Origin: a virus
Direction: 5' to 3' (one strand)
DNA: 15,656 nucleotides
UHGV virus genome: UHGV-0056727
Position numbers and translations under genes: made by a program. Below are positions 7,402-15,656 of this stretch, one piece after another. Below the pieces are notes generated by a model. That model saw nothing but the letters and a program-made list of their open reading frames with translations. It searched no databases and was not told where the DNA came from. How positions within the stretch are numbered: position 1 is the stretch's first letter; every line of letters starts with the position of its first letter.

Positions 7402-7412
7402 TCACCATGCTA

Positions 7413-7443
7413 AAATCCCCTCAATTCACAGAGGGGATTTTTG
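7413..7443 (+). terminator. Rho-independent terminator-like hairpin (stem ATCCCCTC / GAGGGGAT, 8-nt loop, followed by TTTTT)
   Basis: Perfect 8-bp GC-rich stem plus a U-run 12 nt after the stop at 7399-7401. The 3' stem arm GAGGGG is also the only SD-like sequence for the ATG at 7447. Confidence 0.55.
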
Positions 7444-11035: not shown

Positions 11036-12229
11036 GTGACCTGGGACGATCACAAGAAGAATTTTGCTCGCCTGGCGCGAGATGGTGGTTACACCATCGC
11101 ACAGTATGCCGCCGAGTTTAATCTTAACCCTAATACCGCACGTCGTTATCTCCGTGCCTTCAAAGAAGACACCAGGACTACGGACAGCCGCAAGCCAAAT
11201 AAGCCAGTCAGGAAGCCACTAAAAAGCATGATCATTGATCACTCTAATGATCAACATGCAGGTGATCACATTTCGGCTGAAATAGCGGAAAAACAAAGAG
11301 TTAATGCCGTTGTCAGTGCCGCAGTCGAGAATGCGAAGCGCCAAAATAAGCGCATAAATGATCGTTCAGATGATCATGACGTGATCACCCGCGCCCACCG
11401 GACCTTACGTGATCGCCTGGAACGCGACACCCTGGATGATGATGGTGAACGCTTTGAATTCGAAGCTGGCGATTACCTGATAGATAACGTTGAAGCGCGG
11501 AAGGCCGCGCGCGCTATGTTGCGTCGGTCCGGGGCCGATGTTCTGGAAACCACTCTTCTGGAAAAGTCTCTTTCTCATCTCCTTATGCTGGAGAACGCCA
11601 GGGATACGTGTATTCGCCTAGTGCAGGAAATGCGCGATCAGCAAAAAGACGATGATGAAGGTACTCCGCCTGAATACCGTATCGCGAGCATGCTAAACAG
11701 CTGTTCCGCGCAGATAAGCAGCCTGATCAACACCATTTACAGCATCCGGAATAACTATCGAAAAGAAAGCCGGGAGGCGGAAAAGCACGCTTTATCTATG
11801 GGGCAAGCTGGCATTGTTAAGCTGGCATACGAACGAAAGCGTGAAAATAACTGGTCAGTGCTGGAAGCGGCTGAATTCATCGAGGCGCATGGAGGAAAAG
11901 TGCCGCCCCTGATGCTGGAGCAAATCAAAGCCGATCTGCGTGCTCCTAAGACCAATACCGATGATGAGGAAAACCAAACAGCATCTGGCGCTCCATCACT
12001 TGAAGATCTGGATAAAATCGCGCGAGAACGGGCCGCCAGCCGCCGCGCTGATGCGGCATTGTGGATTGAGCATCGTAGAGAAGAAATTGCCGATATCGTC
12101 GATACAGGTGGTTATGGTGATGTCGATGCGGAAGGCATATCAAACGAAGCATGGCTTGAACAGGATCTGGACGAAGACGAGGAGGAAGACGAAGAAGTTA
12201 CCCGCAAACTGTACGGGGATGATGATTAA
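11036..12229 (+). CDS. pacA: PacA, small terminase / pac-recognition subunit (397 aa), acidic C-terminal tail
   Basis: GTG 11036 with AAGGAAG RBS. N-terminus [10 protein letters not shown]... The pac hexamer array lies inside the 5' part of the gene, as in P1. Stop overlaps the pacB ATG. Confidence 0.85.
11229..11387 (+). other. pac packaging site: 4 + 3 TGATC(A/G) hexamers, each carrying a Dam GATC, flanking the cleavage region
   Basis: TGATCA at 11229, 11236, 11248 and 11263; TGATCG at 11359; TGATCA at 11371 and 11382. This is the arrangement described for P1 pac. Confidence 0.8.
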
Positions 12230-13713
12230 TGGCCAGAAGTTGCGTAACGGACCCACGTTGGCGCGAGCTGGTGGCGCTATATCGTTATGACTGGATTGCG
12301 GCCGCTGATGTGTTGTTTGGGAAGACACCAACCTGGCAGCAGGATGAGATCATTGAGTCCACGCAGCAGGACGGCAGTTGGACAAGTGTGACCTCCGGCC
12401 ATGGTACTGGTAAATCGGATATGACGAGTATCATTGCAATACTCTTCATCATGTTTTTCCCCGGCGCTCGCGTCATTCTGGTCGCTAACAAAAGACAGCA
12501 AGTCCTTGATGGTATTTTCAAATACATAAAGAGCAATTGGGCTACTGCTGTTAGCAGATTCCCGTGGTTGTCGAAGTATTTCATTCTTACAGAAACGTCT
12601 TTTTTTGAGGTGACTGGCAAGGGTGTTTGGACAATATTGATAAAGTCCTGTCGCCCCGGAAATGAGGAGGCGTTGGCTGGTGAACACGCCGATCATCTCT
12701 TGTATATCATCGACGAAGCGTCGGGTGTGAGTGATAAAGCATTCAGTGTGATAACAGGTGCGCTGACCGGTAAGGATAACCGTATTCTGCTTCTTTCCCA
12801 GCCTACGCGACCTTCAGGCTATTTCTACGATTCACACCACAGACTAGCTATTCGCCCGGGAAATCCTGATGGATTGTTTACTGCGATAATACTGAATAGT
12901 GAAGAATCTCCGCTTGTAGATGCAAAATTTATACGAGCAAAACTTGCGGAGTATGGCGGTCGTGATAACCCCATGTACATGATCAAAGTACGTGGTGAAT
13001 TTCCCAAATCTCAAGATGGCTTTCTTCTTGGTCGTGATGAGGTTGAGCGGGCGACGCGGCGAAAGGTCAAGATTGCCAAAGGATGGGGCTGGGTTGCATG
13101 TGTTGACGTTGCTGGTGGCACAGGACGAGATAAGTCCGTTATTAATATCATGATGGTGTCCGGCCAGCGAAATAAACGCCGTGTAATCAACTATCGTATG
13201 CTGGAATACACAGACGTTACAGAAACGCAGTTAGCCGCCAAGATTTTCGCAGAATGTAACCCAGAACGGTTCCCGAACATAACCATAGCTATTGATGGCG
13301 ATGGCTTGGGGAAATCGACGGCTGATCTAATGTACGAACGCTATGGCATTACCGTCCAGCGTATCCGCTGGGGTAAAAAGATGCACAGCCGTGAAGATAA
13401 AAGCCTTTATTTCGATATGCGCGCTTTCGCGAATATTCAGGCGGCAGAAGCTGTAAAATCAGGGCGTATGAGGCTTGATAAGGGGGCTGCGACTATAGAG
13501 GAAGCATCAAAGATACCGGTAGGGATAAATTCCGCAGGTCAATGGAAGGTGATGTCAAAGGAAGATATGAAGAAAAAACTCAACCTGCACTCACCGGACC
13601 ATTGGGATACATATTGTTTCGCTATGTTGGCGAACTATGTTCCCCAAGATGAAGTGCTTAGCGTCGAAGACGAAGCGCAGGTTGATGAAGCTCTGGCATG
13701 GCTTAATGAATAA
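12229..13713 (+). CDS. pacB: PacB, large terminase subunit (494 aa)
   Basis: Walker A-like [14 protein letters not shown] motif, and the length and position expected for P1 PacB. Confidence 0.9.
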
Positions 13714-13738: not shown

Positions 13739-14590
13739 CTATTGCGCGCTTTCGGGGTTGCTGTTTACTGGCTGCCCCTTCTTAGTTTTACGGCTGCGCG
13801 TAACTGATGCGGCTGATTTGACCTTTTTCTCTTCGCGAGTGATGGCAATTTGTTTTTTTACATTTTCAATATCTGCCAGGCGATATATTTTTGCCTGCGG
13901 CCAGCGGTCGCAGATGATCGGTTCTATAGAGTCATAAAGGCTAAATTTTGCTTTCTCGAATTCACCGTTGATGATGATTCCATCACGGAGAGTTTCATCG
14001 CAGATAAACACACCACACAGCGGCACATGGTAACTAACTGATTTACCATCATTGTAGTTAGGGCTACTGGAAATGTAATGGACGCGCAGCATTGTTTCGC
14101 TAAAGCCGTGTACACGCATACGGAATTTTTCATCCTCCGGGTACTGCTTCATTAGCTCTTTTGTTGCTTCCAGGTTCTCTATGTATTTCGCACTGTGCTC
14201 ATTGATCCCCGCGCTTTTCTGGATGCGAATGTCCTTATCAATCAGATGAATAATGCGGCCAGCGGTCATGTTGACGCTGTTCACAGCTTCTGTCTGATAA
14301 GTAGTAACCTTACGCACACCGCGAAGGATGTTAGGCACTGGATATAAAATAGTCTTTGGGATATTGAGGTCTGGGTACTGTTCCAGTTCCCGCGCCATTA
14401 AAGTCCATTTATCAATTTCAGCCTGAATGCTGTCCGTTTCTTTGAACGGCAGAACGACAACCGGGCGAACAGGACGACCGTCGCTGGCGGCATCAACGTG
14501 TTGGGCGCGTGCAACAGCTTTTTTTAGAAAGAGATCCCTGAAGCTGACGAACTCCTGGTACAGTTGTTCGCCGTAGACATAATTTATCAT
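13739..14590 (-). CDS. c1: C1 repressor of lysis (283 aa)
   Basis: MINYVYGEQLYQEFVSFRDLFLKK... matches my recollection of P1 C1. Strong GGAGGAGG RBS. Convergent with pacB, 25 bp between stops. Confidence 0.92.
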   Translation of the reverse strand: MINYVYGEQLYQEFVSFRDLFLKKAVARAQHVDAASDGRPVRPVVVLPFKETDSIQAEIDKWTLMARELEQYPDLNIPKTILYPVPNILRGVRKVTTYQTEAVNSVNMTAGRIIHLIDKDIRIQKSAGINEHSAKYIENLEATKELMKQYPEDEKFRMRVHGFSETMLRVHYISSSPNYNDGKSVSYHVPLCGVFICDETLRDGIIINGEFEKAKFSLYDSIEPIICDRWPQAKIYRLADIENVKKQIAITREEKKVKSAASVTRSRKTKKGQPVNSNPESAQ

Positions 14591-14612
14591 TGATCCTCCT
14601 CCAGAATTGACA

Positions 14613-14655
14613 TGGCCAACAACTCACAGCGGATTACACTGGGAGTTGTTGGCCA
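14613..14655. repeat. Perfect 13-bp inverted repeat TGGCCAACAACTC-N17-GAGTTGTTGGCCA in the c1 leader
   Basis: Read directly from the sequence. Lies between the coi stop and the c1 start, with no U-run after it on the transcribed strand. Confidence 0.6.
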
Positions 14656-14684
14656 CCATTATAGAAGGATCCAACGAAAATAAT

Positions 14685-14701
14685 AGATTTATTAGTGCAT
14701 T
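14685..14701 (-). promoter_or_regulatory. C1 operator-like site (14/17 on the minus strand) at the coi stop / c1 leader
   Basis: Plus-strand AGATTTATTAGTGCATT compared with the reverse-complement consensus AAATTTATTAGAGCAAT. Confidence 0.45.
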
Positions 14702-14910
14702 TATTGTGAGTCTGGCTGGTTAGTGGCCATGAGATATTCGATTGTGTCAGTGAGATCATCCAGGTCGTCTTGGGTGATGCGGTACTCCTGATTGGATATC
14801 TTTGAGTAGTGTTCAGCAATGGCGCGGGCAGCGTCGGTTTCGGCGGGGTCTACAGATAAAGCGTTAGAGCAATGTCTAACGTCGTCGATGGTTGGTGGAA
14901 TGAAAGCCAT
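14701..14910 (-). CDS. coi: Coi, C1 inactivator (69 aa)
   Basis: 69-aa acidic protein immediately upstream of c1 in the same orientation, as in P1 immC. Confidence 0.85.
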   Translation of the reverse strand: MAFIPPTIDDVRHCSNALSVDPAETDAARAIAEHYSKISNQEYRITQDDLDDLTDTIEYLMATNQPDSQ

Positions 14911-15148
14911 AATTATGCCTCACTGTATTGACAACACAGAGCCTGAAGCTCTGACCTACTGTTTCACCCATGATCCATGCTGGGGTAATCTAACAACATT
15001 GCGCTGTGTGTAAGATGAGCAATGCATAGCTGTAATGCCGTTGTATAAGGTTTCCCTGTTTGCTCATTTCCTTCTGAGCCGCTCTACAACGCTGAAGACA
15101 CATTAAATAGTGAATCCAAAGTCGTATTACGAAACGGCGGCAAAACTA

Positions 15149-15165
15149 TAATTTATTAGAGCAAT
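15149..15165 (-). promoter_or_regulatory. C1 operator (16/17) within a TTGACA-N15/16-TATAGT-like promoter reading toward coi and c1
   Basis: Minus strand reads TTGACAATTGCTCTAATAAATTATAGTT; the operator fills the promoter spacer. Confidence 0.65.
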
Positions 15166-15231
15166 TGTCAAACAACTATGAAAAACAATCCAGTTTTTGG
15201 CTGGTGGAGTGGGATTTTTCTCTCAAAATTT

Positions 15232-15248
15232 ATTGCTCTAATAATTCT
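15232..15248 (+). promoter_or_regulatory. C1 operator-like 17-mer ATTGCTCTAATAATTCT (15/17)
   Basis: Faces the operator at 15149-15165, 43 bp before loxP. Confidence 0.6.
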
Positions 15249-15291
15249 TGATTTTTATGCGCAGCTGGACGTAAACTCCTCTTCAGACCTA

Positions 15292-15325
15292 ATAACTTCG
15301 TATAGCATACATTATACGAAGTTAT
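15292..15325 (+). other. loxP site (ATAACTTCGTATA-GCATACAT-TATACGAAGTTAT)
   Basis: Exact 34-bp canonical loxP: 13-bp inverted arms around the 8-bp asymmetric spacer. Confidence 0.95.
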
Positions 15326-15396
15326 CTTAAGGGTTATTGAACATGATTAATTTACCTGTAAATCCATACAGTTCAATACCTTATCAGGTCAAATAG

Positions 15397-15418
15397 TGAT
15401 CACTTGATCATTTGATCA
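15397..15418 (+). repeat. Three TGATCA hexamers (Dam sites) phased at exactly 8 bp
   Basis: TGATCA at 15397, 15405 and 15413, followed by an 8-bp inverted repeat GCGCTACG...CGTAGCGC (15424-15482). Probably a methylation-sensitive promoter region downstream of loxP. Confidence 0.55.
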
Positions 15419-15514
15419 AGGTTGCGCTACGTAAAATCTGCGAAATGTTGGCAGTGTTAGTGCTCCAGATTTCGCGTAGCGCACTTAGCACCACCAATCA
15501 ATCAGAGGTGAAAA

Positions 15515-15656
15515 ATGGGATATTCAGCTGCTAAAGTGTCCACTCATCTTGAGCTTGAGAAAAACCGTGGTTACTGGCGGGCAAAAGGGTTTGATCGTGA
15601 TAGTTGCCAACTGTCATTATCGCGCGGTGAAGAGAAAATAGAACGCACGCGCGGTC
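15515..15656 (+). CDS. Hypothetical protein, N-terminal 47 codons (3' end beyond the window); not Cre
   Basis: ATG 15515 with GAGGTG RBS 4 nt upstream, open to the window end. MGYSAAKVSTHLELEKNRGYW... has no resemblance to the Cre N-terminus MSNLLTVHQ... Confidence 0.4.
   Translation, partial: MGYSAAKVSTHLELEKNRGYWRAKGFDRDSCQLSLSRGEEKIERTRG

What the first reader, a model, noticed from the sequence alone, without database searches (positions are those of the whole stretch)
15292..15656. Canonical loxP followed by a phased TGATCA triplet and a non-Cre ORF
loxP is exact. Downstream lie three TGATCA hexamers at 8-bp phasing (15397-15418), an 8-bp inverted repeat, and then a well-initiated ORF (GAGGTG RBS, ATG 15515) whose first 47 residues are unrelated to Cre. 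As I recall, cre in P1 starts about 0.43 kb from loxP, which would fall just beyond the window end. This ORF would then be an upstream gene in the Dam-regulated cre promoter region, or the element carries something else next to loxP.
Basis: partly seen in the sequence, partly recalled or inferred. Interest (0 to 1): 0.45.

Follow-up and report, generated by a model that had tools for sequence, protein, structure and literature searches.

The report
P1 loxP, cre promoters, cra gene
This is the well-known stretch of a P1-type phage-plasmid that runs from the loxP recombination site through the methylation-sensitive cre promoter region into cra, the small gene of unknown function just upstream of cre, so the finding is real but ordinary.

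Summary
loxP is exact at 15292-15325. Three TGATCA hexamers lie at 8-bp phasing (15397-15418). A well-initiated ORF starts at 15515 and is unrelated to Cre.

All of it is already annotated in phage P1, P7 and phiW39. The ORF is cra (Sternberg's 1986 "ORF1", 73 aa). In relatives it stops 7 nt before the cre ATG, in a different frame. A plasmid that differs from the window at one base in 457 continues into cra and cre exactly as predicted.

The GATC hexamers are the annotated Dam sites over the two alternative -35 hexamers of promoter pR1/P3cre. The triple form is the common P7-type allele; reference P1 has two.

- the LexA box and the leftward P2coi promoter
- the C1-controlled P4cre promoter that reads through lox
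- promoter pR2 inside cra

The "8-bp" inverted repeat is really 18-nt arms with a 25-nt spacer.

cra is a genuine gene (dN/dS 0.07-0.27) and stays next to cre down to 64% Cre identity. It has no domain, no informative fold match and no known function.

The only unannotated features are the conserved inverted repeat and a CCAATCAATCAG leader motif.

Verdict: already known, low interest.

The parts
15232..15248 (+). C1 repressor operator Oc1e (ATTGCTCTAATAATTCT), annotated in P1 as possibly controlling cra and cre
   Evidence: Corresponds to P1 94724-94740. The sequence was read and is identical in NZ_CP012491.
15248..15277 (+). Promoter P4cre (-35 TTGATT 15248-15253, -10 TAAACT 15272-15277), which reads rightward through loxP
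   Evidence: P1 annotation 94740-94769, mapped by coordinates. No experiment was done here.
15292..15325 (+). loxP: 13-bp inverted arms around the canonical spacer GCATACAT
   Evidence: Exact match, unique in the window. Annotated as the lox recombination site in P1, P7 and phiW39.
15345..15348 (.). Position of P1/P7 'Dam methylation site 1'. The window reads GATT instead of GATC, so the site is lost.
   Evidence: Alignments. It is the only difference from NZ_CP012491 in 457 nt. The same allele occurs in about 12 of 102 surveyed lox loci.
15349..15376 (-). Leftward promoter P2coi (-10 TAAATT, -35 TTGAAC on the minus strand), which reads across lox towards imcA, imcB and coi
   Evidence: P1 annotation 41-68 on the minus strand. 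The sequence was read.
15354..15373 (.). LexA box (CTGT-N8-ACAG at 15356-15371) overlapping P2coi
   Evidence: Annotated as a LexA binding site in P1 and P7. A CTG-N10-CAG motif is kept in all diverged lineages.
15397..15418 (.). Three TGATCA hexamers at 8-bp phasing, equal to Dam sites 2-4 of P7. Reference P1 has TGACCA at the first position.
   Evidence: About 85 of 102 surveyed loci have 3 GATC here and 17 have 2. Some have lost one whole 8-bp unit.
15412..15437 (+). Promoter pR1 / P3cre: -35 TTGATC at 15412-15417 (alternative -35 TTGATC at 15404-15409), -10 TAAAAT at 15432-15437. The spacers are non-canonical, at 14 or 22 nt.
   Evidence: P1 annotation 104-129 and X03453 147-180. A canonical-spacing promoter scan finds nothing here.
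15423..15483 (.). Conserved inverted repeat with arms TGCGCTACGTAAAATCTG / CAGATTTCGCGTAGCGCA and a 25-nt spacer. The left arm covers the -10 of pR1. Its function is not annotated.
   Evidence: The arms are conserved, and the spacer is fixed in length but free in sequence across diverged lineages. There is almost no covariation. The motif is unique in a 95.7-kb relative. There is no Rfam match.
15494..15505 (+). CCAATCAATCAG leader motif abutting the ribosome-binding site
   Evidence: Conserved (CCAATCAWTC core) in every lineage, although the first downstream gene differs between them.
15505..15510 (+). Ribosome-binding site GAGGTG of cra
   Evidence: Annotated as a putative rRNA-binding site in X03453.
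15515..15656 (+). cra (Cre-associated protein; ORF1 of Sternberg 1986). The first 47 of 73 codons are present; the rest is cut off by the window end.
   Evidence: The 47 residues are identical to Cra of phiW39 and NZ_CP012491. Annotated as cra, Upf0.2 or ORF1. PHROG 804, E = 7e-35. dN/dS 0.07-0.27.
15591..15620 (+). Promoter pR2 / P2cre inside cra (-35 TTGATC 15591-15596, containing a GATC; -10 CATTAT 15615-15620; 18-nt spacer)
   Evidence: P1 annotation 283-312 and X03453 332-361. GATC at 15593.

Best explanation
The window ends inside the lox-cra-cre module of a P1-type (Punavirus) phage-plasmid.

loxP is the target of the Cre tyrosine recombinase, whose gene would begin about 88 nt beyond the window end.

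The 190 bp between loxP and the ORF are a two-way control region. A LexA-controlled promoter (P2coi) fires leftward across lox towards the immunity genes. Promoter pR1/P3cre fires rightward. Its two alternative -35 hexamers are TTGATC, so each carries a Dam site. Methylation of these GATC sites modulates transcription of cra and cre. A further, C1-operator-controlled promoter (P4cre) lies left of lox and reads through it.

The ORF at 15515 is cra, a real 73-aa protein gene. It is co-transcribed with cre and also houses the internal cre promoter pR2; pR3 lies just beyond the window.

Shown here: sequence identity, annotation transfer, intactness and purifying selection of cra, conserved cra-cre adjacency, and conservation of the control region.

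Inferred from the literature: promoter activity, the Dam effect, and LexA and C1 binding.

Cra's biochemical role is unknown. It is dispensable for plaque formation.
For: Identity of the region:
- 99.1% identity over 457 nt to phiW39, to records deposited as Punavirus P1 / Escherichia phage P1 (MH422554, MH445380, MH445381) and to SJ46; 98.5% to P7; 96.6% to the reference P1 genome. The feature under the match is named cra / lox.
- The feature tables of P1, X03453, phiW39 and P7 give lox, the Dam sites, LexA, P2coi, P3cre, cra, P2cre, P1cre and cre in this order. P4cre and Oc1e lie left of lox.
- NZ_CP012491 differs at 1 of 457 nt and continues into a 73-aa cra, then a 343-aa Cre 7 nt later.

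cra as a gene:
- Saturated synonymous change against 21-28% nonsynonymous change between lineages.
- cra-cre adjacency with an 8-nt step is kept at 80% and at 64% Cre identity.
- cra and cre are non-essential for plaque formation (PMC10695390 Table 2).
- The literature places cra between loxP and cre (PMC2409434).

The triplet: it is not chance, and it is the majority allele among 102 lox loci.
Against: The last 26 codons of cra and all of cre lie outside the window, so their presence in this particular element is inferred from near-identical relatives.

pR1 has a non-canonical spacer (14 or 22 nt), and a consensus scan finds no promoter. Its reality rests on the 1986 mapping, which I could not read.

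The size and direction of the Dam effect, and which promoter it acts on, are recalled from that paper's title and the GenBank notes. They were not re-examined here.

The conserved inverted repeat and the CCAATCAATCAG motif are not explained by the published annotation.
Confidence: 0.93

Rival explanations
1. The ORF is not a gene. On this view it is only the untranslated leader of cre, which happens to be open and is conserved because it carries promoters pR2 and pR3.
Against: The frame is open over 71-73 codons in lineages whose synonymous sites are saturated, with dN/dS of 0.07-0.27. Conserved protein motifs (ELEKNRGYWRAKGF, VKAEPILYTLLKTII) persist in relatives at 32-41% identity. Some of those relatives are not next to cre at all. 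There is a strong RBS, and in other lineages the start overlaps the stop of the upstream gene by 4 nt.
Confidence: 0.04
2. This element carries a different gene, not cre, beyond the window end. On this view loxP here is an orphan site or is served by another recombinase.
For: cre itself is not in the window. Gene content between lox and cre does vary among relatives: extra genes of 356 aa and 68 aa occur upstream of cra, and one contig has a 131-aa ORF between cra and cre.
Against: The window's last 457 nt differ at one base from a plasmid that has cra and then cre. 552 plasmid records cover at least 80% of the 1057-nt query. Every oriented lox locus examined that extended far enough had a Cre-like gene downstream.
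Confidence: 0.02
3. The phased GATC cluster is mainly a sensor of hemimethylation, for example a SeqA-type binding site, rather than a simple promoter modulator. It would couple cra-cre expression, or recombination at the nearby lox site, to passage of the replication fork. This is compatible with the main explanation.
For: There are three GATC sites within 22 bp. A GATC cluster is retained at this position in diverged lineages, although the surrounding sequence changes. The same genome uses GATC-hexamer clusters at pac, at 11229-11387. Cre's role in resolving dimers is a post-replication task; this last point is established knowledge and was not tested here.
Against: The number of sites is not fixed: it is 2 or 3, and one 8-bp unit is deleted in several phages. 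Reference P1 works with two. The 8-bp phasing does not put the sites on one face of the helix. There is no direct evidence.
Confidence: 0.15
4. The conserved inverted repeat at 15423-15483 is an operator for a phage protein. The obvious candidate is Cra, because it is present in every lineage. Binding there would give autoregulation of the cra-cre operon at pR1.
For: The arms are conserved in sequence. The spacer is fixed at 25 nt but free in sequence across five lineages, with almost no covariation. This pattern is typical of a two-half-site protein target. The left arm covers the -10 of pR1. Cra is small, basic and always downstream of this region.
Against: The Cra model shows no recognisable DNA-binding fold. 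Transcripts from P4cre would contain both arms, so an RNA hairpin (-32 kcal/mol, z = -1.9) is not excluded. Remote Cra relatives occur without cre. Nothing was tested experimentally.
Confidence: 0.15

Closest known systems
Phage P1 lox-cra-cre region (GenBank AF234172 positions 94724-94800 and 1-1467; X03453, Sternberg et al. 1986)
   Same: Same order and spacing of Oc1e/P4cre, loxP, LexA box/P2coi, Dam sites, pR1, cra, and pR2. 96.6% nucleotide identity. Cra differs at one of the 47 residues seen here (A5T).
   Different: Reference P1 has TGACCA at the first hexamer, so it has two clustered GATC sites rather than three. It keeps the GATC at +37 that the window has lost (GATT). There are a few substitutions in the spacer of the inverted repeat.
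Phages P7 and phiW39, and P1-like IncY plasmid prophages of E. coli (for example NZ_CP012491)
   Same: They share the three phased TGATCA hexamers, annotated in P7 as Dam recognition sites 2-4, and Cra identical over the 47 residues in phiW39 and NZ_CP012491 (P7 differs at residue 43, E to V). Identity is 98.5-99.9%.
   Different: Only the C-to-T change at 15348, which removes Dam site 1. The same allele is present in about 12 of 102 IMG/VR lox loci.
Diverged P1-like lineages of Salmonella, Klebsiella and other Enterobacteriaceae (loci L006-L011, L032, L115)
   Same: They have the same lox arms, LexA box, GATC cluster, inverted repeat with 25-nt spacer, CCAATCAATC motif, and a cra-cre pair with an 8-nt step.
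   Different: A 356-aa gene (PHROG 7674, unknown function), with or without a 68-aa gene, is inserted between the control region and cra. Cra is 71 aa and 59-68% identical. One lineage has the lox spacer ACACACAT.
Other promoters with GATC in a hexamer that are regulated by Dam methylation (IS10 transposase pIN; P1 pac cleavage site)
   Same: GATC lies inside a recognition element, so methylation state changes protein binding. The same window holds the pac-type hexamer clusters at 11229-11387. The comparison with IS10 is from general knowledge.
   Different: Here the sites sit in two overlapping alternative -35 hexamers of a promoter with unusual spacing. At pac they control cleavage, not transcription.

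Membership tests
loxP site of P1-type phages | Two 13-bp inverted arms ATAACTTCGTATA around an 8-bp asymmetric spacer GCATACAT | tested here: met
   Exact 34-bp match at 15292-15325, unique in the window.
loxP site of P1-type phages | A cognate Cre recombinase gene encoded nearby, about 0.43 kb to the right | not testable with these tools
   The window ends 88 nt before the expected cre start. cre is present in all close relatives, including a plasmid differing at 1 of 457 nt.
Cra (P1 ORF1 / Upf0.2; PHROG 804) | Sequence homology to P1 Cra | tested here: met
   The 47 residues are identical to phiW39 and NZ_CP012491 Cra, with one difference from P1 Cra. Full-length Cra matches PHROG 804 at E = 7e-35.
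Cra (P1 ORF1 / Upf0.2; PHROG 804) | Position between lox and cre, ending a few nt before the cre ATG | tested here: inconclusive
   The start is 190 nt right of loxP, as in P1. The 3' end and cre are outside the window. In relatives the stop is 7 nt before the cre ATG.
Cra (P1 ORF1 / Upf0.2; PHROG 804) | Evolves as a protein-coding gene | tested here: met
   dN/dS of 0.07-0.27 between lineages with saturated dS. Intact in 71-73 codons. Conserved motifs persist in relatives at 32-41% identity.
Dam-sensitive cre promoter pR1 / P3cre | GATC within the -35 hexamer(s) TTGATC, upstream of -10 TAAAAT | tested here: met
   TTGATC at 15404-15409 and at 15412-15417, and TAAAAT at 15432-15437, identical to P1 positions 96-129.
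Dam-sensitive cre promoter pR1 / P3cre | Transcription starts here and responds to Dam methylation | not testable with these tools
   This rests on Sternberg et al. 1986 (title cited; GenBank notes). The paper is not held in the library.
LexA-controlled P2coi | SOS box CTGT-N8-ACAG overlapping a leftward promoter | tested here: met
   CTGTAAATCCATACAG at 15356-15371, annotated as a LexA site in P1 and P7. Binding was not tested.
C1 operator (Oc1e) controlling P4cre | 17-bp match to the asymmetric C1 operator ATTGCTCTAATAAATTT | tested here: met
   ATTGCTCTAATAATTCT at 15232-15248, which corresponds to P1 94724-94740.

The most novel reading that the evidence does not exclude
Cra is a small regulator or accessory factor of the Cre system. 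On this reading it binds the conserved inverted repeat at 15423-15483 (17-18-nt arms, fixed 25-nt spacer), which overlaps the -10 of pR1. That would autoregulate cra-cre, or influence events at the adjacent lox site. It would give a function to a gene that has been called 'Cre-associated' since 1986 without any assay.
Probability: 0.12. Interest if true: 0.4.

Novelty: already known. Interest (0 to 1): 0.08.

Why it matters
It matters little as a discovery. The region has been sequenced, mapped and annotated since 1986 and 2004, and it underlies the Cre/loxP tool.

The residual value is threefold:
- It fixes the window as a P1-type phage-plasmid carrying the common P7-type control-region allele.
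- It documents that cra is a selected protein gene tightly linked to cre across lineages, yet still without a function and widely mislabelled 'creatininase'.
- It points out two conserved but unannotated elements in the cre control region, the 18-nt-arm inverted repeat and the CCAATCAATCAG motif. Both would be cheap to test.

Tried and rejected
- Pfam and NCBIfam on full-length Cra gave nothing significant. PADLOC gave nothing for Cra or for the inserted genes of 356, 68 and 131 aa.
- An Rfam scan of 14600-15656 at E up to 1 gave no match.
- I tested for an RNA structure at the inverted repeat. One pair of 16 shows a compensatory change and the covariation term is about 0, so RNA structure is neither supported nor excluded. 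The pR1 leader alone folds no better than shuffles (z = 0.29).
- I looked for a regulon of the repeat-arm motif in a complete 95.7-kb relative. It occurs only at this locus. CCAATCAATCAG-like words occur 5 times against 0.6 expected at up to 1 mismatch, but not in consistent positions, so I did not pursue them.
- A consensus promoter/terminator scan of 15100-15656 found nothing. The published promoters are all sub-consensus.
- Lobocka 2004, Sternberg 1986 and a Dam review are not held in the paper library. The Dam effect therefore could not be read at source.
- I rejected the idea that the ORF might be an N-terminal extension of Cre, because it is in a different frame with a stop before cre.

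Full report
**The observation**

The sequence at 15292-15325 is an exact canonical loxP. It is the only match in the window even with three mismatches allowed, and no shuffle produced one.

Three TGATCA hexamers lie at 15397, 15405 and 15413, exactly 8 bp apart. None of 3000 Markov simulations of the window produced such a triple, and the analytic expectation is 3e-7.

GAGGTG at 15505-15510 precedes an ATG at 15515. The frame stays open for 47 codons to the window end. The product has no similarity to Cre.

The '8-bp inverted repeat' is the core of a larger one. Its arms are 18 nt (15423-15440 and 15466-15483), 89% complementary and 25 nt apart.

**What it is**

The last 457 nt of the window are 99.1% identical to phiW39, to records deposited as Punavirus P1 / Escherichia phage P1 (MH422554, MH445380, MH445381) and to Salmonella phage SJ46. 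They are 98.5% identical to P7 and 96.6% to the reference P1 genome. The feature under the match is named cra ('Cre-associated protein') and lox.

The window as a whole is a P1-type phage-plasmid segment. It holds pacA (11036-12229), pacB (12229-13713), c1 (13739-14590, minus strand) and coi (14701-14910, minus strand), followed by lox.

The curated P1 record gives every element in this stretch:
- C1 operator Oc1e and promoter P4cre lie left of lox and read through it.
- lox itself follows.
- 'Dam methylation site 1' is at +37.
- The leftward promoter P2coi overlaps a LexA box.
- Dam sites 2 and 3 follow.
- Promoter P3cre (Sternberg's pR1) has a -35 hexamer that contains Dam site 3.
- cra occupies 207-428.
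- P2cre (pR2) lies inside cra, and P1cre (pR3) at its end.
- cre starts at 436.

The 1986 record X03453 already lists the ORF as 'pot. ORF1 (aa 1-73)' with its ribosome-binding site. A 2008 paper describes cra as the short ORF between loxP and cre (PMC2409434).

Mapping by coordinates (P1 position 1 = window 15309) places each of these signals in the window with the expected sequence. They are listed under 'parts'.

**Does Cre follow?**

The window stops 88 nt short of the expected cre start. Plasmid NZ_CP012491 differs from the window's last 457 nt at a single base. It continues with the remaining 26 codons of cra, then TGA, then 7 nt, then the ATG of a 343-aa integrase-family protein.

The same holds for P1, P7 and phiW39. 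cra and cre are in different frames.

**How this copy differs from P1**

Reference P1 has TGACCA at the first hexamer, so it has only two clustered GATC sites. P7 and phiW39 have three, annotated in P7 as Dam recognition sites 2-4.

I scanned IMG/VR for lox arms with any spacer and oriented the hits by the LexA box. That gave 104 loci, of which 102 were long enough to classify:
- About 85 have three GATC sites in the cluster and 17 have two.
- Several phages lack one whole 8-bp unit.
- The window's only peculiarity is GATT instead of GATC at +37 (15345-15348), which removes Dam site 1.
- About 12 loci share that allele, and 7 share the window's exact 215-nt haplotype.

The triplet is therefore the majority state, not a special feature of this element.

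**Is cra a real gene?**

A search of 5.8 billion proteins found Cra only in P1-like plasmid prophages of Escherichia, Salmonella, Klebsiella and Cronobacter, down to 59% identity.

Between the 73-aa and 71-aa lineages, synonymous sites are saturated (pS 0.69-0.80) while nonsynonymous change is 0.21-0.28. Where it can be computed, dN/dS is 0.07-0.27. The motifs ELEKNRGYWRAKGF and VKAEPILYTLLKTII are nearly invariant.

A profile search of 1.8 billion representatives added a handful of relatives at 32-41% identity. One of them (41%) again sits 8 nt upstream of a Cre homologue that is 64% identical to P1 Cre. Another sits next to umuDC-like genes with no cre in the sequence available.

Cra is therefore a selected protein that travels with cre but is not strictly confined to it.

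Its function remains unknown:
- It has no Pfam, NCBIfam or PADLOC match, and its PHROG (804) has no function assigned.
- A CRISPRi survey lists cra and cre as non-essential for plaque formation (PMC10695390).

**The control region in other lineages**

Diverged P1-like elements keep several features:
- the lox arms (one lineage with spacer ACACACAT)
- the LexA box
- a GATC cluster
- the inverted repeat
- a CCAATCAATC motif just before the ribosome-binding site

However, they insert a 356-aa gene, with or without a 68-aa gene, between this region and cra. Both inserted genes are PHROGs of unknown function. One contig has a 131-aa ORF between cra and cre.

The control region therefore drives an operon of variable content that always ends in cra-cre.

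**The inverted repeat**

This is the one substantial element that the P1 record does not annotate.

- Across five lineages the arms are conserved in sequence (consensus GCGCTACGYRAAWTCTG). The spacer is always 25 nt but differs freely in sequence.
- RNAalifold finds the hairpin, but only 1 of 16 pairs shows a compensatory change and the covariation term is about zero.
- The left arm covers the -10 hexamer of pR1. A pR1 transcript would therefore lack it. A P4cre transcript would contain both arms and could fold into the hairpin (-32 kcal/mol, z = -1.9).
- The motif occurs nowhere else in a complete 95.7-kb relative, and Rfam has no match.

The pattern fits a two-half-site protein target better than an RNA structure, but neither is shown. 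Cra is the obvious untested candidate. I give that reading about 0.12-0.15.

**Mechanism, and its basis**

Shown here:
- the identity of every signal by sequence and position
- selection on cra
- conserved linkage of cra to cre
- conservation of the control region

Taken from annotation and literature, not re-tested:
- The promoters fire.
- Dam methylation of the GATCs in the pR1 -35 hexamers modulates transcription. The title of Sternberg et al. 1986 states 'regulation by DNA methylation'. The paper itself is not held, so the magnitude and the promoter assignment are from the GenBank notes and my recollection.
- LexA binds the box over P2coi.
- C1 binds Oc1e.

Note that pR1's spacers (14 or 22 nt) are non-canonical, and a consensus scan finds no promoter here.

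**Verdict**

The feature is already known in full, in a common allelic form. Interest is low.

Noticed in passing
window 11229-11268 and 11360-11387: Two clusters of GATC/TGATCA hexamers inside pacA: four TGATCA in the first cluster, and three GATC in the second, of which two are full TGATCA hexamers (11371, 11382). They have the layout of the Dam-regulated P1 pac cleavage site. They account for most of the window's excess of TGATCA (15 observed against 5.7 expected).
   Followed up: partly
window 15515-15656, and protein clusters P0002, P0024, P0030, P0031: Cra homologues (71-73 aa, no enzyme domain) are named 'creatininase' in NCBI, nr and UniRef and in many plasmid records. This looks like a name propagated from the gene symbol and not a function.
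   Followed up: partly
window 15423-15483: The inverted repeat has sequence-conserved 17-18-nt arms and a spacer fixed at 25 nt but variable in sequence across five P1-like lineages. It overlaps the -10 of pR1, is unique in the genome of a relative, and is not annotated in the P1 record. The 1986 record X03453 lacks 2 nt in the right arm compared with the complete genome, probably an old sequencing error.
   Followed up: yes
window 15494-15505: CCAATCAATCAG, immediately 5' of the cra ribosome-binding site, is conserved in all lineages even where the first downstream gene is different. Similar words occur 5 times in a 95.7-kb relative against 0.6 expected, at up to 1 mismatch. The meaning is unknown.
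   Followed up: partly
loci L006, L007, L108 (spacer ACACACAT); L050 (GCGAACAT); L085 (GCATGCAT); L093 (GCGTTCAT): These are natural lox sites with canonical arms but variant 8-bp spacers in IMG/VR P1-like contigs. They may be naturally incompatible lox variants.
   Followed up: no
loci L017, L042, L052, L063, L077, L085 compared with window 15397-15418: The 8-bp unit TGATCAnn is present two or three times among P1-like phages. This looks like slippage-type copy-number variation in the pR1 -35 region.
   Followed up: partly
L006 1188-2504; L008, L010, L032, L115; L094 5882-6277 (minus strand): Diverged lineages carry a 356-aa gene (PHROG 7674), with or without a 68-aa gene (PHROG 19934), between the lox control region and cra. 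The 356-aa gene's stop overlaps the cra start by 4 nt. One contig has a 131-aa ORF between cra and cre. None of these matches Pfam or PADLOC.
   Followed up: partly
locus L043 4673-4877; Lactococcus phage Q33 (JX564242) 17548-17590; Cronobacter phage JK004 48019-48051: One IMG/VR contig has three lox sites within 205 bp, and two unrelated phage records contain isolated lox-like matches. These may be engineered constructs, cloning scars or contamination.
   Followed up: no
window 7410-7443: A 13-8-13 palindrome, CTAAAATCCCCTC-AATTCACA-GAGGGGATTTTTG, followed by T residues. It looks like an intrinsic terminator between genes.
   Followed up: no
window 15269-15278 and 15429-15438: The -10 regions of P4cre and pR1 share the word ACGTAAA(C/A)T(C), 160 nt apart on either side of lox.
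   Followed up: no
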